64,000 nucleotides of DNA, taken from contig OZ024741.1 of the NCBI GenBank assembly GCA_964016885.1, positions 172,484,001 to 172,548,000 of the forward strand, written 5' to 3'. Shown one piece after another: positions 1 through 64,000 of the stretch. The stretch comes from Eledone cirrhosa. Taxonomy: Eukaryota. The position numbers and the translations under genes are program-made. Below the pieces are notes generated by a model. The model had not been told where the DNA came from. It searched no databases and worked only from the letters and a program-made list of their open reading frames with translations. Each line of letters starts with the position of its first letter. Within the stretch, counting starts at the first letter, position 1.

Positions 1-1006
1 AATTTAATTTATTATCCCATATTTTGAATTCACGTCATGTCAGGGTAACCGAAAATGAATTACAATATAAATCAATTTCAATCTAAATTATATTACTGTG
101 CAATTGCACGCACTGTGTTTCCATAGGTGTATAGAAGAAATAATAAGTATAAAATTGGTAAAAATAAAATTAATAAACCTAAAATCGATAAACATAAAAT
201 TAAAAATTGATAAATGAAAAATAAAAGCAAAGTAAATACAGCAATGAAACAATGTAATAACTTAAACTAAATTAGGGCCATGTAAATATACAAGAAGTAA
301 AACAATATTAGAGAGTACTTTTAATGATAGAGATAGAATTAATAAAGGTTAGCAAAAGTTCAGGAATAGAAGAAAAAAAGGAAATGAATGCTGATAGAAT
401 GGCAGTCATTGGCAACAATAGAGTTGCAGTCCGAGGTACCCGCCCTGTAGGTGATTCGCATATTGGCTATAATGCAATGTTTGCACTTAATAGTGAGTGA
501 TGGAGTAAGAGAAGGTTTGTTAAACGGGACAAAATATTAAATCAAACTGCAACTTAAGTAGAGTAGGAATACGTATGTCGATATAATGAATATGTCAGAT
601 AGAGTCAATAAGATGATTAATAATACATTTCACACCTACCTGATTAAATATTACATTTAGCATAATTCAAACATTAATACAAGATTCTGATCAATGCAAC
701 AATGAACATTTGAAATATAACGCCTTTTGAATAATATTATAGAATTATGCTTACATAATAAAAAAAAAACACAGAATTTAATCAAGCCCCATGTATTCAT
801 TCAGTTCATTTGGGATGCATGTGTGCAAAATATATGATTATTTAATTAAATTTTAATAATTGAAATGTCATACTTTGCCTTGTTTGGCAAGATTGTTGAT
901 AGTTACAAAAATATAAATATTGCCTCAAGATAAATGTCACCTCCTGGTTATTTTTTTAAGAAAAAAAGCAAAAGCGAAAAAAAGGATTCGTCGTTGACAT
1001 AAAAAT

Positions 1007-1054
<48 letters not shown>

Positions 1055-1198
1055 ATAGAGGTGTAAAACACGAGTTGTGATATATTGGTAAAAGGAAAAG
1101 AAAATGCTGACAAATTGTTCCCAGTGAAAAATAGTTTAATTAGGAATAAGTAAAAATTAGTAATAAGTATTGGTTAGTATTCAGTTTTAGTTTTAAGT

Positions 1199-1234
1199 TT
1201 TTACCGGTTTCGCATTTCTAATGCTTTTCAAAAA
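1199..1234 (-). ncRNA. Mirror copy of the Neptune hammerhead motif in the left inverted arm
   Basis: Reverse complement of 4371-4406. Confidence 0.7.
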
Positions 1235-1628
1235 TAATTTTGAGATAGAGCGCCCGTGATGTTTGCTCTAATCTGCTGATTAGTTTTGGAAATTCTACCT
1301 ATTTTATGTGAAAAAAGTGGCTCCAGAGGTATTAAAATAAGTTTCGCGACAATTCGTGTTGCAAAAATTCTTGTAGTCAAAACAATTTTGATTGGTCGGT
1401 AGAGGTCACGTGAATGTTAAAAATTGATTTTGCGCCAAATGTAGGTTTGTCGAAGAGTGTCCTTTTTCGCCTGATTGAGAAGCCACTGAAAAATAAGTCT
1501 TTTAAGACAAATATGTGTGTGTGTGTGTGTAGTAAAGAGGTTCATTGTTGTGATAATGGTCAGTAGGGATGTGTGTGTGAATTGCAGTCATGTTGAAAGG
1601 TCAACAGTTCAGGTGCCTATTAAGACAA

Positions 1629-1862
<234 letters not shown>

Positions 1863-2196
1863 CAGAGTAATTCGTGGTAGAGATATCGCTTAGTAGGAAT
1901 GTGTCTGTACGTGTGTGGGGGATATTTTAACATGTTGAAAGATATTTTTCAGCTCTTGTCTTATACGGAGAAGTGTGTGTGTGTGTGTGTGTGTGTGTAT
2001 GTCTCTTTGTATGTTAGTGTACGCGTGTGTATGTGTGTGTGTGTGTGTGTATGTGTATATGTGTGTATGTGTGTGTGGGGGGGGGGACCAGAATTTTTGT
2101 GATACTGGTAAAAATGGTGTACATTATTCGATATTTTCAGCAAAAACGATTCTCTCAAGAGAACATCAAAAACATTAATAATAAAAGGTGTGAAAT

Positions 2197-3149
2197 ACAG
2201 CCATCAACAACTCCCCTTCCTCGACATCCTTATTAAGATTCATAACAAAAAAAATAGAAACAGACATATACTACAAGCCCACAGACTCCAAGCAATATCT
2301 CCCTTTCAACTCTTGCCACCCGAGACACGTTAACATTAATATTCCCTACAACTTAGCCAAGAGAATCTGTACTATAGTTTCCAATAAAAACACCTGTTAC
2401 TTTCGGCTACAAGAACTAAAGGACACACTCATAGGCAGGGACTACCCTGCATCACTAATTGACAATGGAATCCAATGTGCCCTAAAACTCAGTACCCAGG
2501 ACCTTAGACACCCTAAAGTAAATCAACCGAAACTAAAAGCTCTTCCATACATCTCCACACACAACCCCCTCAACAATGAGGCATTTGACACCATCCTCCA
2601 GAACAGCCCTGTGTTAAAAAAGGACCATAGAATGAACCAAATCCTTCGAACACACGATATCATAAAGAGCAAAAGACAATCTAAGTCAATGAAAAACATC
2701 CTAACACATGCCAAATACTTCCAACAACAACAACGAAACCCACAGTAAAATAATGCGATAGATCCAACTGTGGCATATGCATCAACCTAATAGAGGGTTC
2801 GGAATTCTATTTCAAAGAAGGAAAACGTTTTATAGTAAATTACAATTTCACATGCGCATCAGAAAATCTAATATATCTATTAACTTGCTCAGGTTGTCGA
2901 GAACAATACATAGGCCAAACCAAAAACAGCCTCCGCCAACGCATGACTGTCCATGGATCCCAAATTAAAATACGGGAATACAGGAAAATACCACTGAGTG
3001 AACACATTGATACGTGTGCCGCCCAAAATCATCCCAACTTTAGAATCTTTCCCCTCTACAAATTTAAAGATAATGCCACCCACACCCAGCGCATCAGCAA
3101 GGAATCTCACTTTAACAAATATGGACCCCGTCTAAACACTTCTCCCTAA
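2197..3149 (+). pseudogene. 5'-truncated Penelope-like element (Neptune-type): RT C-terminus/thumb, Cys linker and GIY-YIG endonuclease, frameshifted
   Basis: Hand translation gives LPFLDILI..TDIYYKPTDSKQYLPFNSCHPRH..IPYNLAKRICTIVS, then CDRSNCGIC, then TCASENLIYLLTCSGCREQYIGQTKNSLRQRMTVH..PLSEHI..RISKESHF. The CxxxxCxxC linker is typical of Neptune. Confidence 0.88.
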
Positions 3150-3690
3150 CACGAACCCACAACATACACACGTCAACATACATACCTACATCAGCATACA
3201 TCCTACATACATCTCTATCCACATATAAACACAATAACATACGTAAACACACAGGTTCTATGGTGCAACACAAATATACACAGATTTGCATACCTTTTGA
3301 TGTCTATAGATATAAACGTGCCGACATACACACATACATATACGCACACATGCATTGCACACTGATGGGCACATACATATTTGTACACAAGTATTCCAAT
3401 ACGGCAGCGCCTAATGGATTCCTCTTGCAATACGTACAATCTGGACACTCACACACATCTTGGTGTCATGACAATACTATATATCATTTCACACCTTTTA
3501 TTATTAATGTTTTTGATGTTCTCTTGAGAGAATCGTTTTTGCTGAAAATATGGAATAATGTACACCATTTTTACAAGTATCACAAAAATACTGGTCCCCC
3601 CCCCCCCACACACACACATACACACATATACACACACACACGTATATACACACACACATACACACGCGTACACTAACATACAAAGAGACG

Positions 3691-3755
<65 letters not shown>

Positions 3756-3865
3756 CTCCGTATAAGACAAGAGCTGAAAAATATCTTTCAACATGTTAAA
3801 ATATCCCCCACACACGTACAGACACATTCCTACTAAGCGATACCTCTACCACGAATTACTCTGCT

Positions 3866-3963
<98 letters not shown>

Positions 3964-4370
3964 CACACACATATATTTGTCTTAATAGGCACCTGAACTG
4001 TTGACCTTTCAACATGACTGCAATTCACACACACGTCCCTACTGACCATTATCACAACAATGAACCTCTTTACTACACACACACACACACATATTTGTCT
4101 TAAAACACTTATTTTTCAGTGACTTCTCAATCGGGCGAAAAAGGACACTCTTCAACAAACCTACATTTGGCGCAAAATCAATTTTTAACATTCACGTGAC
4201 CTCTACCGACCAATCAAAATTGTTTTGACTACAAGAATTGTTGCAACACGAATTGTCGCGAAACTTATTTTAATACCTCTGGAGCCACTTTTTTCACATA
4301 AAATAGGTAGAATTTCCAAAACTAATCAGCAGATTAGAGCAAACATCATGGGCGCTCTATCTCAAAATTA

Positions 4371-4406
4371 TTTTTGAAAAGCATTAGAAATGCGAAACCG
4401 GTAAAA
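4371..4406 (+). ncRNA. Minimal type I hammerhead motif (U3-A8 core variant) in the Neptune 3' pLTR
   Basis: ttt TTGAAAA gcatt aga aatgc GAAA ccgg TA aaa. Palindromic stem III, only 3-bp stem I, followed by a tail ending at (TA)n at ~4557. Confidence 0.7.
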
Positions 4407-4550
4407 ACTTAAAACTAAAACTGAATACTAACCAATACTTATTACTAATTTTTACTTATTCCTAATTAAACTATTTTTCACTGGGAACAATTTGTCAGCA
4501 TTTTCTTTTCCTTTTACCAATATATCACAACTCGTGTTTTACACCTCTAT

Positions 4551-4583
<33 letters not shown>

Positions 4584-5935
4584 ATGTAATTTTTATGTCA
4601 ACGACGAATCCTTGTTTTCGCTTTTGCTTTTTTTCTTAAAAAAATAACCAGGAGGTGACATTTATCTTGAGGCAATATTTATATTTTTGTAACTATCAGC
4701 AATCTTGCCAAACAAGGCAAAGTATGACATTTCAATTATTAAAACTTAATTAAATAATCATATATTTTGCACACATGCATCCCAAATGAACTGAATGAAT
4801 GCATGGGGCTTGATTAAATTCTGTGTTTTTTTTTTTATTATGTAAGTATAATTCTATAATATTATTCAAAAGGCGTTATATTTCAAATGTTCATTGTTGC
4901 ATTGATCAGAATCTTGTATTAATGTTTGAATTATGCGAAATGTAATATTTAATCAGGTAGGTGTGAAATGTATTATTAATCATCTTATTGACTCTATCTG
5001 ACATATTCATTATATCGACATACGTATTCCTACTCTACTTAAGTTCCAGTTTGATTTAATATTTTGTCCCGTTTAACAAACCTTCTCTTACTCCATCACT
5101 CACTATTAAGTGCAAACATTGCATTATAGCCAATATGCGAATCACCTACAAGGCGGGTACCTCGGACTGCAACTCGATTGTTGCCAATGACTGCCATTCT
5201 ATAAGCATTCATTTCCTATTTTTCTTCTATTCCTGAACTTTTGCTAACCTTTATTAATTCTATCTCTATCATTAAAAGTACTCTCTAATATTGTATTACT
5301 TCTTGTATATTTACATGGCCCTAATATAGTTTAAGTTATTACATTGTTTCATTGCTGTATTTACTTTGCTTTTATTTTTCATTTATCAATTTTTAATTTT
5401 ATGTTTATCGATTTTAGGTTTATTAATTTTATGTTTACCAATTTTATACTTATTATTTTTTCTATACACCTATGGAAACACAGTGCGTGCAATTGCACAG
5501 TAATATAATTTAGATTGAAATTGATTTATATTGTAATTCATTTTCGGTTACCCTGACATGACGTGAATTCAAAATATGGGATAATAAATTAAATTTAACT
5601 AAGACTGAAACATTATTAGTTTGTTATAATTAGATATAAATTACAACTTACAACAAAAACTATCAATATCATTACTAAATTCAGTTACTCTTGTACAATT
5701 AATACAGCATAATAAATTGAGATACATGGGGCCAAGTCACAATGACCTCTTTTAATAAAAATTGTAGAACAGGTCAAAATAATACATTTTAGTAGGATTT
5801 AAGAAATGTAGGAATAAATATAATTCGACATAATGAGTATTAAAAGAATTGATACTGATAAGACCAACACAGCATTTCAGAATTAGCTCATTTGATTTTA
5901 TAATTTAAACAATAAGACATTATTAATGCAACAAG

Positions 5936-6590
5936 TGACGGTGGATTGGCAGTATCGGTAGAGGATCGGACACCATGCATTACAACATAGAGTTACGGCC
6001 CTTGCCATTCTGAATTCAAATCCCGTCGAGGTTAACTTTTCCTTTCATCCTTACGGGGTCGATAAAATAAAGTACCAGTAATGTACTGGGTAATTGCTGG
6101 CCTTGTGCCAAATGTAGAAACAAGTATTACCCTTAGGGCGGTGAATTGGCAGTATCGGTAGATGGTCGGACGCCAAGCCTTCCAGCATAGTTACATCCCT
6201 TTACGGTCTGAGTTCAAATCCCGTCGAGGTTAACTTTTCCTTTCATCCTTACGGGGTCGATAAAATAAAGTACCAGTCATGCACTGGGTAATTGCTGGCC
6301 TTTTGCCAAAAGTAGCAACAATTATTACCTTCTACGTTTTTAGTTAAATCCCCGCTGAGGTTAACTTTGCCTTTCAACCTTGCGGGGTCGATAAAATAAA
6401 GTACCAGTCATGCACTGGGTAATTGCTGGCCTTTTGCCAAAAGTAGCAACAATTATTACCTTCTACGTTTTTAGTTCAATTCCCGCTGAGGTTAACTTTG
6501 CCTTTCATCCTTACGGGGTCGATAAAATAAAGTACCAATAATGCACTGGGTAATTGATGGCCTTGTGCCAAAAGTAGAAACAATTATTAG
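5936..6590 (+). mobile_element. Tandem array of tRNA-derived SINE copies and 3' halves (octopus OR-like SINE)
   Basis: A-box-like TGGCAGTATCGG, B-box GTTCAAATCC and core CTTTCATCCTTACGGGGTCGATAAAATAAAGTACCAG repeated 4 times. Family name from recall. Confidence 0.85.
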
Positions 6591-10970: not shown

Positions 10971-12651
10971 TTAAAATGTTCTTCGTATACGGTGATTACA
11001 AACTATGATCAGTTCCTGCCTTTTATTTAATAAATCGTCTTTAGATTTCGTAATTTCCAAGATCTCCCCTGAACATAATCTGCATTCCCTCCTGTTCCCA
11101 AGATATGGAGTTCTTTGTAGAATGGTGTTCCACGATAACTTGAAATATATTTTTTTTCTTTTTATAATTATTTACCGCTTCAGCTAAAGATGTGGTGTTA
11201 GCTAGTTTAGTATTGTTGAAACTACTAGAGTGTGCGTAAAATCTTTTCTTAAATGTTTTTGATGTAGATCCTATATATGTTTTGTTGGAGTCAGTAGTAG
11301 ACACAGTGCATTTATATATTACATTATTAATCAAACAGTTGCCATATAAGGGGCAAATGCTTCTATTTCTGCAATTACAGCCATACGTAAGATGATTGTT
11401 GGGGGTGCCTATACTATTCTCATTAATCCTTGAGCTATTCCTATTGTAATTAATGTTAGCAGGAGAATGAAGGTTGCTTTGTGGGTGGTTTGGTGCTTGG
11501 GTTGTTTTGTGATTTTGTGTTCTGTTGTTTTTGTATTGGTGATTTGGGTGGTTGTGTTTTCTGGGTTGAAGGATTGTATTATTTGCCTTTTTAAAAAGTG
11601 CAGTCCTATTTAAATTATATTGCGGTGGTGCAGTCATATAATTTTTAAGTTTATAAATGTTGTAGTTGCTTATTTTTTGCTGGAGATTGTTTGATGTAGA
11701 GTATGAGAATTTAACAGTATATTTGTTAAATATTTGGTGGTATCTGTGGTTTGGTGGAAAATGTTTATATAGAATTTCGAAGAATTTTTGGAGGATTTGT
11801 CCAATAGTTTGCAGGTTGAAGGGTGCGTTGTACCATGTTATGTTTCTTTTGCGATTTTTAGTTAAGTTCTTATTACCACTTATATTATTGTGTTGTGTTC
11901 TAGAAGAATTCCTATGGTTAATATCCTTATTTGTGGAATTTTGTAAATTGCAGTGGTTGTATTTGGCGTTATTATTGGGTAGATTATGAGATTTTGAGTG
12001 CTTGGTATTCATATGTGGTTTGATAACATTGGTCATAGATCGTGTAGTAATAGTTGTGGTTTTTTGGTTGTTTGGTGTAATAGGAATAACCACTTTAGGT
12101 ATTTGTTTCAATGGTATTTTTTGGTGTTTGTAGTTTTTGCTAGGCTTTATATTTTGGTCCATAGTATTGTTGGGGATATATGAGATTTTTTCTTTATATC
12201 CACTTCTAGTTAAGGCCTCGTTGTAGAAGGGTGCATTATTATAAAATATATCTTCATTGGAAGATAATTTAGAAAGTCTAAGAGATATGTTGTATACTAA
12301 GTTCTTGAGTATAGAGCCAGGGTGGTTAGATCGTGAATATACATAATGTAGATTCTGGTTGCGTTTGTGGTAAGGTTGATAAGAATTCGTAGAGAGGTCT
12401 AAGGTCACGTCAAGGAAATTAGCTACTTTTGAAGTTGTTTCAAAAGTGATGCTAAGGCTGTAATAGTCCTTGAGGAATTTTCTAATTTGTTTTTTGTTTT
12501 TCTCTATATTAGAATTGCTAAGATTGTTAGATAACAATAGACAATCATCCCGATAAAGACCACCTTTGAGATGGGGAAAGGAGTCATGAATATTATAGAG
12601 GAGAAATAGTCCAACGAGGTCTGTAAATTGAGCAGAGTCCATGGATCCCAT
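10971..12651 (-). pseudogene. Naiad RT + GIY-YIG ORF remnant (frameshift in an A-run near 11160; in-frame TAA upstream near 12698)
   Basis: ORF 11041..12651, plus the shifted frame YFKLSWNTILQRTPYLGNRRECRLCSGEILEI..LLNKRQELIIVCNHRIRRTF*. Confidence 0.88.
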
Positions 12652-12905
12652 CGTAATATCGAATAAGTTGTTATATGTGTTTCCTGTCCAGTATTCTTAT
12701 TGGAAGTTTAGTAAGGTTTTTCTAGCGTGAGTTATGATGTTGATTTCCTCAGTAGATAAATCCGATATATAAGTAGATATATATATAATGCACCGAAACT
12801 ATAGAGATTTCCCGAAGGTGACTGAAGAGAAGGGTTGTCCTGTTTTTACGCTTTTTTTCCTGTTGTCTTTGTCCTGTGCGACCCCGTTTATATATATATA
12901 TATAT

Positions 12906-13635
12906 AATATTCATGACTTCTTTCCCCATCTCAAAGGTGGTTTTTATCGGGATGATTGTCTATTGTTATCTAACAATCCTAGCAATTCCAATATAGAGAA
13001 ATACAAAAAACAAATTAGAAAATTCCTCAAGGACTATTACAGCCTTAGCATCACTTTTGAAAACACTTCAAAGGTAGCTAATTTCCTTGACGTGACCTTA
13101 GACCTCTCTACGAATTCTTATCAACCTTACCACAAACCCAACCAGAATCTACATTATGTATATTCACGATCTAACCACCCTGGCTCTATACACAAGAACT
13201 TAGTATACAACATATCTCTTAGACTTTCTAAATTATCTTCCAATGAAGATATATTTTATAATAATGCACCCTTCTACAACGAGGCCTTAACTAGAAGTGG
13301 ATATAAAGAAAAAATCTCATATATCCCCAACAATACTATGGACCAAAATATAAAGCCTAGCAAAAACTACAAACACCAAAAAATACCATTGAAACAAATA
13401 TCTAAAGTGGTTATTCCTATTACACCAAACAACCGAAAAACCACAACTATTACTACACGATCTATGACCAATGTTATCAAACCACATATGAATACCAAGC
13501 ACTCAAAATCTCATAATCTACCCAATAATAACACCAAATACAACCACTGCAATTTACAAAATTCCACAAATAAGGATATTAACCATAGGAATTCTTCTAG
13601 AACACAACACAATAATATAAGTGGTAATAAGAACT

Positions 13636-13640
<5 letters not shown>
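12906..13640 (+). mobile_element. Inverted duplicate of part of the Naiad-1 ORF (mirror of ~11865-12598), flanked by (TA)n
   Basis: ORF 12876..13706 is nearly identical to the corresponding segment of ORF 11041..12651. Confidence 0.93.
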
Positions 13641-13710
<70 letters not shown>

Positions 13711-16787: not shown

Positions 16788-17732
<945 letters not shown>

Positions 17733-18822: not shown

Positions 18823-19347
18823 AATTCGGGCTGTTTGTTTGTTTACAAACAAACAAACCGAGCATTATAATAAATGTTCGGTAAACCGATACGTGCATAT
18901 ATATATATATGTGTGTGCATGTGTGTATATATATATACATACTACTGTACGTCTGTATACATATATGTATGTACGTATACATACATACTTATATTTAAGT
19001 AAGTGCCGTACTAAGAGTGAGAAATGAAATTACGTTTCATTCTATTCCATTTATCGTTTTCGGTGTGCCCGGCCGACTGAACTCACTCGATATGCAAATT
19101 AGGCTGCTCAGCCGTTAATATGCATAAGGAAAGTATATACTTTCAGACGTTCAACCATCTGGCAGGAAGGTATACGATGCTGACGATAGCTAATAAGCTT
19201 GAAACTAGTACATCGTTCCTGTGTCAGTGTTGAACAAAAAGGTGACGTGGTTGCCTAAACACTGTACGGCTTAATTCGGGCTGTTTGTTTGTTTACAAAC
19301 AAACCAAGCATTATAATAAATGTTCGGAAAACCGATACGTGCATATA

Positions 19348-43848: not shown

Positions 43849-44477
43849 AGGCCCACAAGGACTATCCATTTATTTTTGAGACTCGAAACCGTTCGGTAAA
43901 GGTAACCATAGCAGGTACAGTGAATCTTTTAAAATTTATTTTAAAACTTTTTCTTATTTGCTAAACCTTGATTATATATGTTCTGGCTTGTTAATTTATT
44001 AAGCTGCCATAGAACCACATTGGCATACGGTTGGATAATACATGTGTCCCTATATGTATTTTGCATGTAGGGACATATACTTTATTATTATTAATCTCCC
44101 CCTGGTCGAGATAACATCTGGTCGTTTTGACTGCTGCTATTTATAGCGGTAGTAGATTGACCTCTCCGCCTCTGCCTTCTATCTTTACACACGGCACTGG
44201 ACAGAATTGCTTCCACATCATTCATTCTCATCTCGGGGATAATTTTGAATAGCACCAGTTCGTAATTCGAACTCGGAAATTTTATATTCTCCGAGTGAAA
44301 AGAACCTTCTGACGAGTGAAAAGAACCTTCTGACGAGAGTTTTTCTTTTCAATGGAGGCACGCAAGGACTATCCATTTATTTTTAAAACTCGAAACCGTT
44401 CGGTAAAGGTAACCAAAGCAGGTACAGTGAGTTTTTCAACATTTCTTTTAAAACTTCTTCTTATTTGCTAAAACTTG

Positions 44478-44480: not shown

Positions 44481-44559
<79 letters not shown>

Positions 44560-44602
44560 TAACAGATTAAAGTTTAAGCAAAGAATCGCTGCTTTCACCC
44601 TT

Positions 44603-46275
44603 AACGAAAATTTGATGGTGTGTTTGTTAAACATTTTACTATAGATATGTGAGGGAGGGAAGCATTTATTTAAGGCACTAAAAAATAATTTAGGAATATT
44701 GTTATTAATAGAGATGGAGAAAGGAGCATTATACCGGATTATGTTTTTGTATCTAGGTCTTTTATTAAAATTATTGGAATGGTCATGATTAATTATTCTA
44801 CTGTAAGCTTTTCTAGAATTTGTTTCTTTACTATATTTGATTTTATCTGGATAGCCGGCTTTAGAAAGTGCGTTATTATAGTAATTGGCGTTAGCATCAA
44901 AGATGTTTTTATTAGAAGATATGTTAGATATTCTTTTTCCAATATTACTAACTATATCATTCTTGATATTGGTAGGATGGTTAGATTTAAAGTTAACATA
45001 ATTTAGGTTCTCATTGTTTTTATGGTAAGGGTAATATAGGCCAGTGTCAAGATTGAGAGATACATCCAAGAAATTAGCTAGTTTGATACTATTATCAAAT
45101 TCAATTTTTAGGTTATGTTGGTTAAAGAGATTACGTATATTGTTCTTAATAATATTAAGGTTAACTATATTGCAGTTTAGGATAGTAAAGAGTCCATCGT
45201 CGCGATAAATTCCACCGCGAAGTTGAGGAATTTTCCGACTCAAAGAGTTCAAAATGAAGATACCAATTAAATCAGTCAATTGAGATGAATCGGATGCTCC
45301 CATTGTGATGTCGAAGTTGTTAGAGGTATCGGCTCTGGTCCAATATTCGTTGTTGAACTCTAGGATGGTTTTACGTGCGGTGAGGATGATGTGAAGTTCA
45401 TCTGTGGTGATGTCAGAATATTTAAGTGCGAAAGATAGAGCATTATTGAGAAGTGAAGGCGAAATGGAGGAATAGTAGCTGGCAATATAAAATTGAATAA
45501 ATTTTAGTTTGTTTTTATTATCCAATTTGTTGAACCAGCCAATCACTTCAGAAGTACCAAACCATAAATTTAGGTTCAAAGAAGAGCAATTAGAACTAAC
45601 CTGTGGGATAATTCTATCCAAGATGGCTTTACTAACAACCCCCAGATCAGATTTAGAGGGGGCGATTAATCTAACAGGTAGTTCAGTGCGAAAATTGTTT
45701 TTGTGATCCTTGAGATTTATCCTCGGAGTTCTTGGGAGGAATGGTTCGGTCTTTTTTTCAATGCCAAGTTTTGACATAATCTCATAGGCTTCAAGGTTTA
45801 TGTATTCTAAATTTTCATGGTTGGTTTTACGATACTTTTTCCTAAGTTCTTTTAGGATAAGGTTGTTATAATTATCCTTGGAAATACCATATAAGTTATT
45901 GGTTTTGTCAGAGTGTACTAAAACATTTTTTGAGGAATTTAGGTTAGAGATTGTGTTCTTGAGATTTACAAGGTGCTCTTGTCCTTTGTAAGGGTATCTC
46001 TTGAATTTAAGATTTTTTATTATTTTAGTTAATTCTTCCTCGAATTGTACTAGATTTTTGTTGGAAGGAGGATTTCGTCTAGAATTAAAAAGATGATCGA
46101 GGAAGTTATGTTCTTTGGTATGGACGTTCCCTTTTAGGCGCTGGTCATAGAAATAGGCTGTCCATCTAAGTCTTCTTACGAAGGAGTCAGTTTTTTCAAT
46201 AAGAAGTTTGGTGAATTCAGATTTACCAGGTATAGGAATGTCTTTAGTTCAATTGGTTATGTTGTAATAATCCAT
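44603..46275 (-). pseudogene. Naiad-2 ORF, N-terminus through RT/thumb (in-frame TGA at codon 9; truncated at ~44603)
   Basis: MDYYNITN*TKDIPIP..VRRLRWTAYF..HSDKTNNLY..LKDHKNNF..RLIAPSKSDLG..FDITMGASDS..IYRDDG..NFLDVSLNL. Confidence 0.92.
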
Positions 46276-46480
46276 GTTGTAGAAGAAGAGGTGAAGGACC
46301 ATCAAAAGGTATCCAATATGAGAGTAAGCGCTCAACCGTTAAGGAGCAAGTTAATGTAGGAGGTGAGTTTTATTGCAGTACAATAAAGCAATGCAGATAT
46401 CGGATAAGAAGCACTCTACAGTTTGTAGGACTGGAGTATACATAATATAAGATCAAAAGATGGTTAAAGGAGTTCCATGT

Positions 46481-46549
46481 ATTTTATTATGCGCATTTCA
46501 AAAACAAACATCATCATGCAATAATATTTGTGTTTTCATCAGATAAAAC
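46481..46549 (-). ncRNA. Naiad-2 hammerhead, intact core
   Basis: gttttat CTGATGA aaacacaaata..tgtttgttttt GAAA tgcgca TA ataaaat. Confidence 0.88.
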
Positions 46550-47568
46550 AGGAGAACATGATATGAAGGCTAAAAAACACTTGTGGATAGTGCAGTTTTA
46601 AATCAACATATGAAAAGTGGTTTTAGATTGATGTGTGATATTGAAAAAAATATTTTATTTAGAGAGGGGGGGTGGAAAGGATGAAAACGGGGAGGAGATG
46701 AGAGGGAGAGATGGGTGATAGAGAGAAAGAGATAGTTTTTATAACTGAGAGGAGATATATTGTTTTACATAGAGAGGTTGAAAACCGTTGGAAGATAATG
46801 TATAAATTAAAACAATTTTTGAAAATTAACGAAGGGAGGATATGTGCGAGGAAAAGATATTTTATTTAGGGAGGGGTGGTGGAAAGGATGAAAAAAGGGG
46901 AGGAGATGAGAGTGAAGGTGGAGAGGGAGAGATGGGTGATAGAGAGAAAGAGATAGTTTTTATAACTGAGAAAAAGATATATTGTTTTATATAGAGAGGT
47001 TGAGAACCGTTGGAAGATAATATATAAATTAAAGGAATTTGAAAATTAACGAAGGGAATTTATGTATGAAGATAGAGAGAAAAAATAATAATTGTGGATG
47101 AATATTCTAACGTCAAAAAAGGGTATGTTGATAAGTATTGTGGCAATTTCAAAATTAACGAAGAGAAAAATTATTAAGGTTTGTGTGTAGAAGGATTTGA
47201 GAAAAATAATGTGAAGTTAAAGTTTGTATATTGAAGGAATTGATAATATATGCGAATAAAGAGTTAATATGTATTAAGAATGAGTTCGTTGATGGGGAGA
47301 AAAAAATAATAAATTAAGGATGAAATTGAGATTAAAAAGATTTATGATAGAGAGAAAAAATAATAATGATTGCGGATGAATATTCTAACGTCAAGAAAAC
47401 GAATGTATATGTTATGAAGGATTTTACAGGGTGAAGATAGAATGAGGGTAATGAGTAAACAAGTATTATAGTGTGTATAATGCCCTTTAAATTAGATGGG
47501 TATATTTTAAAGAGGTGTATGTATATGTGCCTTTGAGAAAAGATTCTAAATTGATAAAGAATTGAATA

Positions 47569-48836
47569 TTAACTGTATACTTTGTGAAAAGTCCTATGGA
47601 ATTTATGCAGGCAGATAGAAAACAAATCTGTACGTCTATTTATTATAGAATCTAGGTTAGAGATAATGGTAAATTTTTCATTTAGGCAGAGATTACAGAT
47701 TTTAGATAGAGAGCTGTTCAAATATGAGGATGCAGAAGAAACCTTCTTCCAAAAGATGGTATATTTAATGTTTTTGTCTTTTAAGGACCATATGAGTTCT
47801 GAGAGAGCAGTGTTGGTTCTTTTAAGTTTGTATTTGAAAGATGAATGATGATTATAGGGACGAGCTTTAAAAGAGGTGAAAGTGGAGCCAAAATAGGTGA
47901 AGGAATTGGTGCTAGTTATAATTTTACATTCATAAATTAAGTTTTTATCTAGACAATGGTTGTTGAGAGGACATTTATTTTTAATGCGGCAGTTGCAATT
48001 AGAGAGATTATTAATGAGTGACCTAGTGTTATCTATAGAAGGAATTGGATTGGAGAAGTTGTTTGCGATAGGAATAATAGGAATAATAGTTTCTTTATTT
48101 AGAGTTGGATTATGAACATTTAGCGAAGTTGTGTTTGACGTTGTATTTGGGTTTACAGAAGTTAGCCTAGGGTTTACAATGACGTCGGGAGTACTATTAC
48201 TGTTATTATGAAATTCAATATTGGAAGGAAGAGATTTAGTATTTAGTATTTTATTGTTGTGTTTAGAGATGATGTTGGAAATATTGGAGGATGTAGAATA
48301 CGAAAATGTGATGGTGAGTTTGTTAAATATTTTACTATAGATATGTGAGGGAGGGAAGCATTTATTTAAGGCACTAAAAAATAATTTAGGAATATTGTTA
48401 TTAATAGAATTGGAGAAAGGAGCATTATACCAGATTATGTTTTTGTATCTAGGTCTTTTATTAAAATTATTGGAATGGTCATGATTAATTATTCTACTGT
48501 AAGTTTTTCTAGAATTTGTTTCTTTACTATATTTGATTTTATCTGGATTGCCGGCTTTAGAAAGTGCGTTATTATAGTAATTGGCGTTAGCATCAAAGAT
48601 GTTTTTATTAGAAGATATGTTAGATATTCTTTTTCCAATATTACTAACTATAGCATTCTTGATATTGGTAGGATGGTTAGATTTAAAGTTAACATAATTT
48701 AGGTTCTCATTGTTTTTATGGTAAGGGTAATATAGGCCAGTGTCAAGATTAAGAGATACATCCAAGAAATTGGCTAGTTTGATACTATTATCAAATTCAA
48801 TTTTTAGGTTATGTTGGTTAAAGAGATTACGTATAT
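47569..48836 (-). pseudogene. Naiad-2 ORF C-terminal half (thumb, Zn linker, GIY-YIG), 5'-truncated
   Basis: ORF 47569..48765: SNHP, WYNAPF, CNCRIKNKCPLNNHCL, LIYEC..YFGST..FKAR, CNLCLNEK. Confidence 0.92.
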
Positions 48837-48857
48837 TGTGCTTTTAATGCGGCAGTT

Positions 48858-51274
48858 GCAATATAGTTAACCTTAATATTATTAAGAACAATATACGTAA
48901 TCTCTTTAACCAACATAACCTAAAAATTGAATTTGATAATAGTATCAAACTAGCTAATTTCTTGGATGTATCTCTTAATCATGACACTGGCCTATATTAC
49001 CCTTACCATAAAAACAATGAGAACCTAAATTATGTTAACTTTAAATCTAACCATCCTACCAATATCAAGAATGCTATAGTTAGTAATATTGGAAAAAGAA
49101 TATCTAACATATCTTCTAATAAAATCATCTTTGATGCTAACGCCAATTACTATAATAACGCACTTTCTAAAGCCGGCAAGCCAGATAAAATCAAATATAG
49201 TAAAGAAACAAATTCTAGAAAAACTTACAGTAGAATAATTAATCATGACCATTCCAATAATTTTAATAAAAGACCTAGATACAAAAACATAATCTGGTAT
49301 AATGCTCCTTTCTCCATCTCTATTAATAACAATATTCCTAAATTATTGTTAGTGCCTTAAATAAATGCTTCCCTTTCTCACATATCTATAGTAAAATATT
49401 TAACAAACACACCATCAAATTTTCGTATTCTACATCCTCCAATATTTCCAACATCATCTCTAAACACAACAATAAAATACTAAATACTAAATCTCTTCCT
49501 TCCAATATTGAATTTCATAATAACAGTAATAGTACTCCCGACGTCATTGTAAACCCTAGGCTAACTTCTGTAAACCCAAATACAACGTCAAACACAACTT
49601 CGCTAAATGTTCATAATCCAACTCTAAATCAAGAAACTATTATTCCTATTATTCCTATCGCAAACAACTTCTCCAATCCAATTCCTTCTATAGATAACAC
49701 TAGGTCACTCATTAATAATCTCTCTAATTGCAACTGCCGCATTAAAAATAAATGTCCTCTCAACAACCATTGTCTCGATAAAAACTTAATTTATGAATGT
49801 AAAATTATAACTAGCACCAATTCCTTCACCTATTTTGGCTCCACTTTCACCTCTTTTAAAGCTCGTCTCTATAATCATCATTCATCTTTCAAATACAAAC
49901 TTAAAAGAACCAACACTGCTCTCTCAGAACTCATATGGTCCTTAAAAGACAAAAACATTAAATATACCATCTTTTGGAAGAAGGTTTCTTCTGCATCCTC
50001 ATACTTGAACAGCTCTCTATCTAAAATCTGTAATCTCTGCCTAAATGAAAAATTTACCATTATCTCTAACCTAGATTCTATAATAAATAGACGTACAGAT
50101 TTGTTTTCTATCTGCCTGCATAAATTCCATAGGACTTTTCACAAAGTATACAGTTAATATTCAATTCTTTATCAATTTAGAATCTTTTCTCAAAGGCACA
50201 TATACATACACCTCTTTAAAATATACCCATCTAATTTAAAGGGCATTATACACTCTATAATACTTGTTTACTCATTACCCTCATTCTATCTTCACCCTGT
50301 AAAATCCTTCATAACATATACATTCGTTTTCTTGACGTTAGAATATTCATCCGCAATCATTATTATTTTTTCTCTCTATCATAAATCTTTTTAATCTCAA
50401 TTTCATCCTTAATTTATTATTTTTTTCTCCCCATCAACGAACTCATTCTTAATACATATTAACTCTTTATTCGCATATATTATCAATTCCTTCAATATAC
50501 AAACTTTAACTTCACATTATTTTTCTCAAATCCTTCTACACACAAACCTTAATAATTTTTCTCTTCGTTAATTTTGAAATTGCCACAATACTTATCAACA
50601 TACCCTTTTTTGACGTTAGAATATTCATCCACAATTATTATTTTTTCTCTCTATCTTCATACATAAATTCCCTTCGTTAATTTTCAAATTCCTTTAATTT
50701 ATACATTACCTTCCAACGGTTCTCAACCTCTCTATATAAAACAATATATCTTTTTCTCAGTTATAAAAACTATCTCTTTCTCTCTATCACCCATCTCTCC
50801 CTCTCCACCTTCACTCTCATCTCCTCCCCTTTTTTCATCCTTTCCACCACCCCCTCCCTAAATAAAATATCTTTTCCTCGCACATATCCTCCCTTCGTTA
50901 ATTTTCAAAAATTGTTTTAATTTATACATTATCTTCCAACGGTTTTCAACCTCTCTATGTAAAACAATATATCTCCTCTCAGTTATAAAAACTATCTCTT
51001 TCTCTCTATCACCCATCTCTCCCTCTCATCTCCTCCCCTTTTTCATCCTTCCCCCCCCTCTCTAAATAAAATATTTTTTTCAATATCACACATCAATCTA
51101 AAACCACTTTTCATATGTTGATTTAAAACTGCACTATCCACAAGTGTTTTTTAGCCTTCATATCATGTTCTCCTGTTTTATCTGATGAAAACACAAATAT
51201 TATTGCATGATGATGTTTGTTTTTGAAATGCGCATAATAAAATACATGGAACTCCTTTAACCATCTTTTGATCT

Positions 51275-51281
<7 letters not shown>
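48858..51281 (+). mobile_element. Inverted Naiad-2 copy: ORF C-half (frameshift near 49348), 3' UTR, hammerhead 51175-51243, tail ending in (TA)n
   Basis: Reverse complement of 46443-48836. Confidence 0.93.
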
Positions 51282-53147: not shown

Positions 53148-54336
53148 ATATATAGAGAAACCCACACATACATGCGGAAACATACATATACATGAATATA
53201 TCCACATATAACCTTGAGTTAGTGGTACCAACCTCAACCGATGTTGCTCTATGAATAACCGGGATAAACTAATCCGAATGGATTAGATTGATTCAGTATC
53301 AGAGCTATATAATACATTACGAAGAGAGAAGAAACATTAGATATAATTAATAATAAGATATATCATACCCAAACTGCTTCTTTAGTCCTCGACTACGTAG
53401 TTTCGTGGCATATTATGCAAAAACACTACATCATAGAGATATAGAATTTCTGTGAGGGTTTTAAAACTCTTAATGAGGTATCCTCTTGATAAGTCGGCAG
53501 ACCTCACAAAAATTCTATATCTCTGTGATGTAGTGTTTTTGCATAATATGCCACGAAACTACGTAGTCGGGGACAAAAGAAGCAGTTTGGGTATGATACA
53601 TCTAATTATTAATTATATCTAATGTTTCTTCTCTCTTCGTAATGTATTATATAGCTCTGATACTGAATCAATCTAATCCATTCGGATTAGTTTATCCCAG
53701 TTATTCATAGAGCAACATCGGTTGAGGTTGGTACCAATAACTCAAGGTTATATGTGGATATATTCATGTATATGTATGTGAAGGAAAGATAAAGTGTAGG
53801 GGGGTTAGAATTTGGAAATATTTAATTTATAATATTAATGTGAAGACTCCAGATTTCAGGATTATTTGCTATTTATTTATATTATTTATATAAATTCGAT
53901 AAGTGTGTTATCATTTCTAAACTTCTGAATTGTGAGAATAACATTATAAAGGATTTAGCTGGCGCATAAAGAATGAAATATTATACTGTTGATTAATTAC
54001 CTAAATCTTCACATTAATATTATGAATTAAATAATTCTAAATTCTAACCGTTTAACTTTCGAAAAAAAAACCTACACTTTATCTTTTCTTCCTTATAAAT
54101 CTTTTTCCAGTGGCTGTCACAGGCTGTAATGATTCATGAGACGTTTCCCTAGCAATTTAAAATTTTAGAACACTTTAAGTATGCAGGGTTTTTTCTTACT
54201 CACACATTCTCTAATGAATTCATTACGTTTTCGCACTCTCACACAAATATTATATAGGCAAAATGTTCTATCGGGTAATCACTACCTTGATTAAATCTTA
54301 ACTATTTAACATCTCAGGTATGTCATGTATCATTAT

Positions 54337-54389
54337 ATTTTGTCTGATGAGGACGTACTGTTGTATATCCGAAATATGTATAATAAAAT
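54337..54389 (+). ncRNA. Type I hammerhead, intact core
   Basis: attttgt CTGATGA ggacgtac tgtt gtatatcc GAAA tatgta TA ataaaat. Confidence 0.88.
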
Positions 54390-54471
54390 GTAATTGAATA
54401 AAAGAATATCTATTTTATTAATACCATGTGCGTTTTTCACTGGTAGTTGGCTCCTCTGCCGCCAGGAAAAA

Positions 54472-54607
54472 ACTCGTTGATAAAGTAAACCTCCGTTCCA
54501 CTTACTCTAGTAGGCTTTTATATTTATATGTGAGCTGATAGAGTACAGTCTAAGGATTTACAGAAACCCATGAAGCTAGATTTAACACCTGTCTAGTGGG
54601 TCCAGGT
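54472..54607 (+). ncRNA. Extended hammerhead (U3-A8), copy 1
   Basis: actcg TTGATAA a gtaaa cct..agg a tttac a GAAA ccc..ctaga(11 nt)tctag t ggg TC caggt; one stem I mismatch. Confidence 0.78.
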
Positions 54608-55087
54608 ATGATTTTACATTCATTTAAATTATTGACGTATTGTTTTATTGATATTTTTTATCTGTTTGGCCCGAATCTTCCTCTATCGATTTTAAATCGT
54701 ATGGTTGATTGTAGACTTGTTCTATATGTGACGGTATTTTAACGATAGTTATAGCTCTGATTCATCTGAATTATTGAGCCCTCTGCCGCTCATATCGAAT
54801 TTCGTTTATCGTGAACTCGTGCGCCGATTTTTCGATACTCAATCTTTCTAATATATTTAGCTCTGGACATAGCTATCCACCAGTTAATTTTATTGCTCAT
54901 TTTTTGTCGATTCTATTGAGTGATGAATAGCTTTTGTTTTATTTTAACATGTCTATTGAGCACTCTAATTCGATATGTGTATTTCCACATTCACTCGAAT
55001 TGTTTTCGCGGATATAGGGGTCATCTCCCTTGTCTAATGCCATGTGCGTTTTTCACTGGTAGTTGGCTCCTCTGCCGCCAGGAAAAA

Positions 55088-55223
55088 ACTCGTTGATAAA
55101 GTAAACCTCCGTTCCACTTACTCTAGTAGGCTTTTATATTTATATGTGAGCTGATAGAGTACAGTCTAAGGATTTACAGAAACCCATGAAGCTAGATTTA
55201 ACACCTGTCTAGTGGGTCCGGGT
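55088..55223 (+). ncRNA. Extended hammerhead (U3-A8), copy 2
   Basis: Same fold, with stem I actcg/cgggt fully paired; predicted cut after 55218. Confidence 0.82.
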
Positions 55224-55460
55224 ATGATTTTACATTCAATTAAATTATTGACGTATTGTTTTATTGATATTTTTTATCTGTTTGGTCCGAATCTTCCTCT
55301 ATCGATTTTAAATCGTATGGTTGATTGTAGACTTGTTCTATATGTGACGGTATTTTAACGATAGTTATAGCTCTGATTCATCTGAATTATTGAGCCCTCT
55401 GCCGCTCATATCGAATTTCGTTTATCGTGAACTCGTGCGCCGATTTTTCGATACTCGATC

Positions 55461-55537
<77 letters not shown>

Positions 55538-55688
55538 TATATACACATATATATATATACACATATATATACAGTATATATACACACGTATATACAGTAT
55601 ATATACACACCTATATATATATATATATATATACATATATACACATATATATACATATATATATATATATACACATATATATATACAC

Positions 55689-55719
<31 letters not shown>

Positions 55720-58609: not shown

Positions 58610-60805
58610 CATATTTATGATGCTGAAAAATTGCAGAACTATTCTCCATCCCCATCTATAATCTTCCTCTTGTAGTATTGATGGCTCAGAACTTCTGAGT
58701 GTTTCCATCGAGTTCGATCTGCCAATATGCATTAGTTAAGTCAGTCATAGCGAAGAATCTTGCACAACTAAGTTTGCTGAAGATTGTTTCCATTTGTGGC
58801 AAAGGATAGGGTTCAGTGCATATCTTTTCATTCAAAGAAACTTTGTAGTCAGGACTTATACGAATTCGTCAATTTTTCTATCTAACCCAGACGACTGGAG
58901 AAGTATTGACTACGCCACCAGGAGGGCATTTCTTGAATTTACACCTCTGGCTACCAATGCATCCAGCTCCTTTACAACATCTTCCTAGAGCGTAATAGGC
59001 ACGCTTCGGGGGACACAGAATTTACGAGGTGTGTCAGAAAAGTTCCAGGACAGATGTCACAAAAGATTTATTTCAAACCCAAACTTCACACTAAGACTTT
59101 TCTCTATCAAAGTGTTTTTGAGTGGTGCAAGAGGTTTAAAGAAGGACGCGAGGACGTGGAATATGACCCCAGGAGCGGAAGGCCCTCAACAACCAGGACT
59201 GAGGTCAACGTTGAGCGCGTCAGGCAGATGGTGCGTAATGATCGTCGGCTGACTGTACGACTGATGGCAAATGAGCTGGGCATGAATCGGGACAGCATCT
59301 GGAAGATTCTCACTGAAGATTTGGATATGCGGAAAGTCTGCGCAAAGAAGGTGCCAAAACTGCTGAACGATGACCAGAAGGGTCGACGCATGCAAGTGTG
59401 CCAGGACATCCTCGAGCGTCTTGAAACCGAACCGAACTAGGGACAGTCATCACCGGTGATGAGTCATGGATCTTCGAGTACGACCCGGAGGGGACCCGTT
59501 TTGAAGACGTGGACGACATCAAAAGGGCCGTGACGACGGAATTGTGGAGGATCCTGAAAGAATCCTTCCAGGAGTGCATGCAAGCGTGGCAGAAAAGGTT
59601 GGAAAAGTGCATTAGACTCCAGGGGGTTACTTCCAAGGAGAAAACTCTTAGTGTGAAGGAGAAAACTCTTGGGTTTGAAATAAATCTTTTGTGACATCAG
59701 TCCTGGAACTTTTCTGACTCACCTCGTATCAGAGGCATTAAGTATTAATTTAACAGAAGCTTTAAAGTACCAGTAATGCACTGGGTAATTGCTGGCCTTG
59801 TGCCTAAAGTAGAAACAAGTATTAATTTAACAGAAGCTTGCACTACCTGATTGTTGGAAGAAGTGATTCAACGCTGCAAGCTGTTTAAACATTCATTAAA
59901 TCGTGACCTAGGAAACCATATTTTCAGCAGCATTTAATTACTTTGAAAGTATGAAGAAATTGTTGACCTCCTCACTTAACAGTAAGACAAGCATCACCAA
60001 CGCATTTCATGTAATATTCATCATATGATTCGTACGAAGTGCTGTTTTGTTATAGTCACGCCTATGTCATTTGACACTTTAGAAGAGATAATGCTGCATG
60101 GTGCACCCGTATCCTGCATCACGTAAACAATGTCAATGTAACCATTTAGGGAGACAGGTTCAAATATTGGTTTTTCAGCTATGTGACCGATAAGAATCAT
60201 GATTCCATCTTGACGAATTACCTTGTGAAGGTTCCTGGTACATAGTCGCGTTGGAATAAGCAATAACCTCCTTTTTTAATTGCTACTACAAAATTCGGAT
60301 ATTTGCGAAGAACGCTGTAGAAATGATTCACTAACTTCATTGGCTTGAAGAACGTTTTCTCTTTCTTCACTGCTTCTTAGACCGACAACTAACTGAGACA
60401 TTATGAGATTTCCAGTCATTGTCCTTTTAGACGTTTTCAGGCTCTCAAAATCGCAGTATTCACTGGCATGTCGATGTTTCGAAAGAAATTATGAAACTGA
60501 TTCACTGGGCTGTTGGCTAGTGGAGAAAATGTTGTTCTTTCTGCCAATATCAGTTTCTTTGAATGAGTAACATTTTTGAGATTAGCGTAAGTCATCTTCG
60601 TGAAATTGTTGGGAATGTTAATATATCGGACAATCTTTAATGCTTGTATTCCGACCAAAGAAATGAATTTCATAGCCATAGGACTTTTGCCACCATCTTG
60701 TATCTTATCCTCTACTTCGTCCACGTAAGCCTTTCCTTCAAAGGCCATGAAGCAGGTTATGACGTCTTCGATCGACTGTAAGAAATTGTCCTTGCCCTTT
60801 CCATT
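58610..60805 (-). mobile_element. Ty3/Gypsy remnant (gag, protease, RT) split by a mariner and a SINE fragment
   Basis: 58610-59012 reads VVKELDALVARG..SPVVWV..IRISPDYKVSLN..PYPLPQMETIFSKL..FFAMTDLTNAYWQIEL..MGMENSSAIFQ. Protease and gag are at 59845-60805. Confidence 0.82.
59025..59726 (+). mobile_element. Internally deleted mariner with both ~58-bp TIRs and TA TSD
   Basis: TA|CGAGGTGTGTCAGAAAAGTTCCAGGAC...GTCCTGGAACTTTTCTGACTCACCTCG|TA; HTH region, KKVPKLL and TGDESW. Confidence 0.93.
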
Positions 60806-63367: not shown

Positions 63368-64000
63368 AGGCCCACAAGGACTATCCATTTATTTTTGAGA
63401 CTCGAAACCGTTCGGTAAAGGTAACCATAGCAGGTACAGTGAATCTTTTAAAATTTATTTTAAAACTTTTTCTTATTTGCTAAACCTTGATTATATATGT
63501 TCTGGCTTGTTAATTTATTAAGCTGCCATAGAACCACATTGGCATACGGTTGGATAATACATGTGTCCCTATATGTATTTTGCATGTAGGGACATATACT
63601 TTATTATTATTAATCTCCCCCTGGTCGAGATAACATCTGGTCGTTTTGACTGCTGCTATTTATAGCGGTAGTAGATTGACCTCTCCGCCTCTGCCTTCTA
63701 TCTTTACACACGGCACTGGACAGAATTGCTTCCACATCATTCATTCTCATCTCGGGGACAATTTTGAATAGCACCAGTTCGTAATTCGAACTCGGAAATT
63801 TTATATTCTCCGAGTGAAAAGAACCTTCTGACGAGTGAAAAGAACCTTCTGACGAGAGTTTTTCTTTTCAATGGAGGCCCGCAAGGACTATCCATTTATT
63901 TTTAAAACTCGAAACCGTTCGGTAAAGGTAACCAAAGCAGGTACAGTGAGTTTTTCAACATTTCTTTTAAAACTTTTTCTTATTTGCTAAAACTTGATTA

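What the first reader, a model, noticed from the sequence alone, without database searches (positions are those of the whole stretch)
54424..55470. 616-nt non-coding unit bounded by two extended hammerheads: candidate retrozyme-like circular RNA
Seen: a tandem 616-bp unit with no conserved ORF carries two type I HHR folds, with predicted cut sites after 54602 and 55218. Each has a U3-A8 core (UUGAUAA), a long stem II insert and a real, internally looped stem III, unlike the minimal palindromic stem III usual in PLEs. Known: tandem HHRs in non-autonomous retrozymes release monomers that circularise, and the metazoan non-LTR retrozymes I recall are shorter. Inference: this is a larger, structured retrozyme-type family mobilised in trans by (TA)n-targeting Naiad PLEs.
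Basis: partly seen in the sequence, partly recalled or inferred. Interest (0 to 1): 0.9.

Follow-up and report, generated by a model that had tools for sequence, protein, structure and literature searches.

The report
Young ribozyme repeat pasted as concatemers
This is a recent 1.7-fold copy of a 616-base non-coding repeat that carries a predicted self-cutting RNA fold and is scattered, mostly in TA repeats, across this animal genome; it belongs to a known kind (animal retrozymes), and its copies look as if a borrowed jumping-gene enzyme likely copied one small RNA, probably a circle, round and round.

Summary
The 616-nt tandem and both hammerhead folds are real (cuts predicted after 54602 and 55218), but the first hammerhead has a stem I mismatch and is not predicted to fold. 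The unit belongs to a young dispersed family: 2,524 hammerhead-pattern matches genome-wide against 3 for the control. Copies share one 3' end about 250 nt past the cut site, at an internal ATATAT that runs into (TA)n; 5' ends vary. Arrays reach 18 whole units, are uniform inside (0.6 differences against 12 between arrays) and have exact joints. In the wider family 5' ends pile up at the cut site, indirect evidence of cleavage in vivo. A paralogous empty site shows a recent insertion with a 100-nt target deletion. No coding Penelope-like element (PLE) adjoins any of 89 copies. Verdict: a non-LTR retrozyme, likely copied from a monomeric RNA by a PLE reverse transcriptase. Size (published range 51-972 bp) and U3-A8 core are already in print; Naiad is a poorly supported helper. 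Cleavage, expression and circles are untested. The scan has noted this kind before, in this and other genomes.

The parts
54424..55472 (+). Whole insertion, 1.70 units: 179 nt before the first cut site, one 616-nt unit, 254 nt after the second
   Evidence: ends defined by the empty paralogous site L123
54419..54424 (+). 5' junction with microhomology (target TAATAC, unit TAATGC); about 100 nt of target lost, no target-site duplication
54472..54607 (+). Hammerhead 1 (type I): stem I 5' strand 54472-76, core U3-A9 54477-83, extra base 54484, G10.1 54485, C11.1 54561, extra A 54562, GAAA 54563-66, cut after 54602; A at 54604 breaks stem I
54603..55218 (+). Predicted 616-nt monomer, cut site to cut site; non-coding; structured on the + strand only
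   Evidence: z -3.65, 20 shuffles; circular fold -149 against -126.8 +/- 7.3 for 40 shuffles; minus strand -121
55088..55223 (+). Hammerhead 2, family-type sequence: core 55093-99, extra base 55100, extra A 55178, GAAA 55179-82, cut after 55218
54851..54856 (+). Internal ATATAT (unit positions 249-254), the point where family copies end and the inferred priming site
55467..55472 (+). Fixed 3' end; the same ATATAT merges with the (TA)n target
55473..55697 (.). (TA)n target tract, also present in the empty paralogue
16892..17731 (+). Second insertion, of the related 594-nt family (family B), same core, compensated stems, in (TA)n

Best explanation
This is a recent insertion of a non-coding, dispersed tandem-repeat family with a predicted hammerhead in every unit, and it was likely made when the reverse transcriptase of a Penelope-like element copied a self-cut, probably circular, 616-nt RNA into a TA repeat. 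Shown: copy structure, fixed 3' end, variable 5' ends, uniform arrays, exact joints, empty site. Inferred: (1) transcripts through two units are cut by the hammerheads as they are made; (2) the monomer is closed by a host ligase and refolds so that the ribozyme is off; (3) a PLE endonuclease nicks (TA)n and the freed end pairs with the internal AUAUAU 250 nt past the joint; (4) the RT runs round the circle for 1 to 18 or more turns and the cDNA joins the target at a random microhomology; (5) RNAs that are cut but still linear give the short copies whose 5' end lies at the cut site.
For: Fixed 3' end in 15 of 15 distinct insertions among L001-L030 and at the matching place in diverged subfamilies; TA at the 3' flank in 46 of 50 and the 5' flank in 76 of 89 loci. 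24 arrays, 142 units: 0.59 differences within against 12.0 between arrays, 19 distinct fixed haplotypes, 140 of 142 joints exact, up to 18 whole units: each array passed through a one-unit bottleneck. Two arrays carry a private variant scattered over non-adjacent units (170T>C in 5 of 13; 562G>T in 5 of 13) found in no other of the 24 arrays, as expected if one template base is read ambiguously on each turn. 5' ends of the closest copies are spread round the unit (1 of 33 within +1..+20). In the wider family 5' ends spike just after the cut site: 19 of 28 listed loci in +1..+10 against 9 in -20..-1 (p 2e-4); minus-strand counts 126 for that window against 43 for a control window at about +30..+63; family B 16 of 22 in +1..+8 (p 9e-6). 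In 5 of 5 monomers folded as circles stem I has probability 0.01 or less. The cycle is the one proposed in PMC7229834 and PMC4209133.
Against: No RNA evidence of any kind. The core is non-canonical (U3-A8, an extra A before G12, 4-5 bp stem I); only 1 of 9 Xenopus retrozyme dimers cleaved in vitro. Scattered variants could also come from gene conversion, a second template or assembly error; one array (C763) shows an alternating two-variant pattern and one (C1483) a different first unit, which a single monomer circle does not explain. TA and AT microhomologies inflate 5' ends at +5..+10 in this family (3 such dinucleotides in 10 nt against 2 in 20 nt). The closest young copies show no spike at the cut site. 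The helper was not identified.
Confidence: 0.66

Rival explanations
1. Same element and enzyme, but no covalent circle: the RT starts inside a linear, hammerhead-cut monomer and jumps from its 5' end to the 3' end of the same or another monomer, again and again.
For: Explains the spike of 5' ends at the cut site also in long copies (4 of 19 in this family; 21 of 40 family B copies of one unit or more end at +1..+18) and arrays that mix variants (C763, C1483).
Against: 140 of 142 joints are exact, whereas end-to-end jumps usually add or lose bases (my knowledge of R2-type RTs); the closest copies do not stop preferentially at the joint (1 of 33).
Confidence: 0.14
2. Copies are made from linear read-through transcripts of existing arrays that end in the (UA)n tail and are only partly cut; long arrays then grow in place by unequal crossover.
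For: Gives the fixed 3' end with no internal priming, and the short copies that start at the cut site (15 of 19). The preprint favours local amplification by unequal crossover.
Against: Needs uncut templates and cDNAs of about 10 kb or independent fast expansion at many young loci; arrays of 15 and 18 units have no internal difference at all, and 19 haplotypes are each fixed in all units of an array; single variants are not duplicated in blocks.
Confidence: 0.12
3. The unit is the pseudo-LTR of a coding PLE that I did not find, and the copies are its truncated products.
For: The hammerhead has PLE hallmarks (extra base at 9/10.1, G10.1-C11.1, short stem I, U3-A8); many Xenopus retrozymes match PLE ends; only 40 of 737 and 40 of 3,497 candidate loci were scored.
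Against: In 89 loci no PLE frame adjoins the 5' end (nearest matches about 1 kb away, behind unrelated sequence, four PLE queries); sequence upstream of the hammerhead is always the unit's own 3' end; a profile of 22 family 3' segments found no convincing match in seven PLE-type ends.
Confidence: 0.08

Closest known systems
Metazoan non-LTR retrozymes (Cervera and de la Pena 2020, PMC7229834, parts 2-4 of 6 read; Li, Clavereau and Pollet 2026, bioRxiv 10.64898/2026.07.22.740005, parts 1-3 of 5 read)
   Same: Non-coding tandem unit, one type I hammerhead per unit, GC under 50%, dispersed monomers to multimers, co-occurrence with PLEs; 616 nt lies inside the preprint's 51-972 bp range.
   Different: Longer than the 170-400 nt invertebrate circles of the 2020 paper; PLE-type rather than canonical hammerhead with long stems II and III; ribozyme predicted to be blocked in the circle, unlike most metazoan cases in that paper; fixed internal 3' end at (TA)n and a target deletion instead of a duplication; expression untested here.
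Hammerheads of PLE pseudo-LTRs, including the U3-A8 variant of Schistosoma mansoni (PMC4209133, passages read)
   Same: U3-A8 pair, unpaired base between A9 and G10.1, G10.1-C11.1, stem I of 4-5 bp.
   Different: A real stem III rather than a minimal palindromic one; 78-nt stem II insert; a second extra A between C11.1 and G12, which I did not find in the passages read; no reading frame between the hammerheads.
Non-autonomous Chlamys PLEs such as MRC1 (PMC8557442, passages read)
   Same: Non-autonomous, head-to-tail multicopy insertions, microsatellite targets.
   Different: Those share 3' sequence with autonomous families and mostly lack hammerheads; here no sharing was found.

Membership tests
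Metazoan non-LTR retrozyme | Tandem repeats with a type I hammerhead in each unit | tested here: met
   the window's first hammerhead is damaged
Metazoan non-LTR retrozyme | No protein-coding capacity | tested here: met
   longest ATG frame 57 aa on the tandem unit
Metazoan non-LTR retrozyme | Dispersed, mobile, multi-copy | tested here: met
   175 matches in 40 scored of 737 candidates on many contigs; empty paralogous site
Metazoan non-LTR retrozyme | Self-cleavage of the RNA | tested here: inconclusive
   indirect only: spike of 5' ends at the cut site
Metazoan non-LTR retrozyme | Expressed as linear and circular monomer RNA | not testable with these tools
   no run on record as RNA was offered
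Metazoan non-LTR retrozyme | Co-occurrence with autonomous PLEs | tested here: met
   intact 784-aa RT plus GIY-YIG frames; an 840-aa frame
Pseudo-LTR of an autonomous PLE | Flanks an RT-endonuclease reading frame | tested here: not met
   0 of 89 loci; sample only
PLE-type insertion | Fixed 3' end, 5' truncation, microsatellite target | tested here: met
PLE-type insertion | Inverted 5'-truncated arm next to the copy | tested here: not met
   0 of 89 loci have an opposite-strand piece of the unit of 30 nt or more; one array is joined head to head to another element's 3' end
Naiad-mobilised element | An active Naiad (endonuclease before the RT) in the genome that shares the 3' end | not tested
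   no Naiad query was at hand; Naiads lack canonical hammerheads; the PLE frames seen have a C-terminal endonuclease
Plant LTR retrozyme | Type III hammerhead in LTRs, 4-bp target duplication | tested here: not met
   type I fold; target deletion

The most novel reading that the evidence does not exclude
The genome holds a direct record of rolling-circle reverse transcription in an animal: each long array is one RNA circle read up to 18 or more times from a dedicated internal priming site, with a single damaged or modified template base showing up at random among the turns, and the circle carries a new hammerhead variant (U3-A8 plus an extra A before G12) that cuts only while the RNA is being made and is switched off once closed.
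Probability: 0.35. Interest if true: 0.7.

Novelty: new member of a known kind. Interest (0 to 1): 0.4.

Why it matters
Retrozymes are known, but the step in which a PLE enzyme copies their RNA circle into the genome has been proposed rather than shown (PMC7229834; PMC4209133), and the role of hammerheads in PLE biology is called unclear (PMC8557442). This young family gives fixed coordinates to test both: a priming site 250 nt past the joint, a TA target, a cut site marked by 5' ends, and intact candidate PLE proteins in the same genome. The window copy itself is an ordinary, slightly damaged member.

Tried and rejected
Rfam at E up to 1 and up to 10: no hammerhead model matches. Sequencing runs: no RNA holder listed; only contigs were laid; run X1 (guessed RNA) holds fragments only; the 'goes back 616' joints and the 645-nt contig also arise from tandem DNA, so none of this bears on expression. 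An alternative core CUGAUAGA inside the stem II insert was rejected by eye because no stem I forms. A short-stemmed version of the same hammerhead: 0 matches. RNAalifold on alignment A1 did not recover the hammerhead; the alignment misregisters stem III between the two families, so I counted named pairs instead. One search was meant as a control for family B but its added G made counts incomparable; not used for counts. Helper search: 3' regions of the 784-aa family, Hydra-like ends, the 840-aa family and two neighbouring window elements gave no convincing match to the unit (best 10.3 bits, 53492-53810, above its 60 shuffles but out of register with the cut site). A T>C excess among within-array variants (8 of 19 sites) is not significant among transitions. 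Literature searches for a cephalopod or octopus retrozyme and for genomic footprints of rolling copying listed no paper describing this family; subscription papers and bioRxiv supplements were not visible, and the preprint's supplementary family tables could bear on it.

Full report
Observation. The stretch 54419-54850 is repeated at 55035-55466 with a period of 616 and 4 differences in 432 nt. Each repeat holds a type I hammerhead: stem I ACUCG/CGGGU, core UUGAUAA, one extra base, stem II opened by G-C (GUAAA/UUUAC round a 78-nt insert), an extra A, GAAA, stem III ACCCAU/GUGGGU with an internal loop and hairpin, and GUC ending at 54602 and 55218. The minimum-energy fold of 55070-55240 is this structure, with z -0.7. 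Copy 1 has A at 54604, which breaks stem I; its predicted pairing probability is 0.00 against 0.42-0.44 for copy 2. The monomer has no frame over 57 aa and folds better than shuffles on the + strand only. Rfam does not detect the ribozyme.

Family. The window lies in a 3.0-Gb genome (G000). The unit gave 175 matches at 98-100% in the 40 scored of 737 candidates. A related 594-nt family sits at 16892-17731 of the same window and has 3,497 candidates. A pattern for the whole hammerhead matches 2,524 times against 3 for its reversed control. In those matches position 7 takes all four bases; the other core positions were fixed by the pattern, so their constancy is not independent evidence. Across 19 diverged members, picked by me from the 56-odd distinct sequences, the named pairs covary (38 cells changed on both sides against 15.5; 0 of 500 shuffles; 88% paired against 24-43% when slid), mostly in stem II, where only 76% of cells pair; stems I and III hardly vary. 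Related sequences can beat such shuffles without structure, so this is support, not proof.

Ends. All 15 distinct insertions among L001-L030 end at unit position 249-254, where an internal ATATAT merges with (TA)n; diverged subfamilies end at the matching place. TA flanks 46 of 50 3' ends and 76 of 89 5' ends. A paralogue of the window's segment 16 kb downstream (L123) lacks the element and holds about 100 extra bases before the same TA tract, so the insertion is recent, deleted target DNA and joined at a TAAT microhomology. No PLE frame adjoins the 5' end in 89 loci and none of 89 has an inverted arm of the unit.

Arrays. In 24 arrays (142 whole units; one fetched locus dropped for having a single unit; C1483 and C2:10.6 Mb may be one insertion) units differ by 0.59 within and 12.0 between arrays, 19 haplotypes are fixed array-wide, 140 of 142 joints are exact, and arrays of 15 and 18 units have no internal difference. 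That points to a one-unit template copied many times. Two arrays carry a private variant in 5 of 13 non-adjacent units (170T>C; 562G>T), absent from the other arrays. My inference is a modified or damaged base on a template read repeatedly; gene conversion or assembly error are not excluded, and two arrays (C763, C1483) look like mixtures of templates.

Cut site. 5' ends of the closest copies are spread round the unit (1 of 33 within +1..+20; 35 rows less one duplicate and one at an N gap). In the wider family (72-98% identical), the 28 distinct loci among the first 100 of 957 rows have 19 ends in +1..+10 and 9 in -20..-1 (p 2e-4; read by eye, tested); minus-strand counts are 126 for this window and 43 for a control window at about +30..+63. 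Of the 19, 15 are short copies of about 250 nt and 4 carry a further unit; of the 9, 2 are short and 7 long (p 0.01). Family B shows 16 of 22 in +1..+8 (first 100 of 201 rows; one locus dropped for not matching the family; p 9e-6), with fewer TA/AT dinucleotides after the cut than before it, and 21 of its 40 best-scoring copies end in +1..+18 (32 measured, 8 read). Templates that begin at the predicted cut site are the simplest reading, so the odd ribozyme likely cuts in the germ line. Folded as circles, 5 of 5 monomers have stem I at probability 0.01 or less, so a closed monomer is predicted to be stable.

Helper. The genome holds many PLEs that end in (TA)n: a family with intact 784-aa frames, RT then C-terminal GIY-YIG, an 840-aa frame with RT and a GIY-YIG-like end seen by eye, and abundant elements that I read as Hydra-like from their motifs (clade names not tested by a tree). 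None shares clear sequence with the unit. One 18-unit array is joined head to head to 175 nt of a repeat 3' end that follows Hydra-like endonuclease sequence in 4 of 20 loci fetched. This could be a two-template insertion or a target deletion like the window's; it is one case. Naiads lack canonical hammerheads and are remnants in cephalopods (PMC8557442, passages); the second point applies only if the host is one, which I did not test.

What is known. Animal non-LTR retrozymes are tandem non-coding units with type I hammerheads, expressed as circles in coral, mussel and axolotl, with copying of the circle by a PLE RT proposed (PMC7229834, parts 2-4 of 6). A preprint reports lengths of 51-972 bp, kinship with PLE ends, and cleavage in 1 of 9 dimers tested (10.64898/2026.07.22.740005, parts 1-3 of 5, supplements closed). 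U3-A8, the unpaired base after A9 and more-than-unit copying of circles are in PMC4209133 (passages). PMC3088659 (passages) lists natural core insertions; I saw none between 11.1 and G12 there. Searches listed no description of this family. The scan's own notes, looked up after I had reached the rolling-copy reading, describe the same kind in this and other genomes; they are not independent support.

Verdict. A real, young member of a known class. What lifts it above routine is that the family's copies make the proposed copying step testable.

Noticed in passing
window 16892-17731: Insertion of the related 594-nt family; its copies are mostly short of two units and stop at the cut site, unlike the long arrays of the 616-nt family.
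   Followed up: yes
window 35.6-44.5 kb, 51.3-64 kb and L123: The segment is present at least three times in tandem (98-100% identical); only the middle copy has the insertion.
   Followed up: partly
window 53781-54423 (hammerhead 54344-54382): A minimal palindromic hammerhead with a canonical core directly upstream, part of another PLE-type end; it is present in the empty paralogues too.
   Followed up: partly
window 53195-53764: 570-nt palindrome of a repeat with 2,039 candidate copies, a decayed minimal hammerhead and the motif TATAGCTCTGA also found in the unit about 100 nt before its 3' end.
   Followed up: partly
window 44330-44405, 63849-63924 (+); 43421-43352, 62884-62815 (-); 51182-51236 (+), 46542-46488 (-); 19180-19210 (+): Further hammerhead folds with canonical cores, several with stem II inserts of 36-55 nt: long stem II is common in this genome.
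   Followed up: no
window 1-5595, 11041-13706, 44554-51279: PLE copies with large inverted repeats: a Neptune-like one with no hammerhead evident by eye in its 3' region and two Hydra-like ones.
   Followed up: partly
L228:6815-6989 (G000:C1:49829514-49829688): 175-nt 3' end of another TA-targeting repeat joined head to head to an 18-unit array.
   Followed up: partly
L232:2514-5033 (-): Intact 840-aa PLE frame tail to tail with an array across about 1.5 kb of (TA)n; its hammerhead lies about 250 nt from its 3' end, and its end (CTCG-N5-CTAATAT) resembles the unit's (CTCG-N6-CTAATAT); the profile test was not convincing.
   Followed up: partly
window 58937-59437 and 5897-6589: A frame with an HTH_32 match (transposase-like by my reading) and a dispersed 190-nt repeat with a 131-nt tandem tail.
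   Followed up: no
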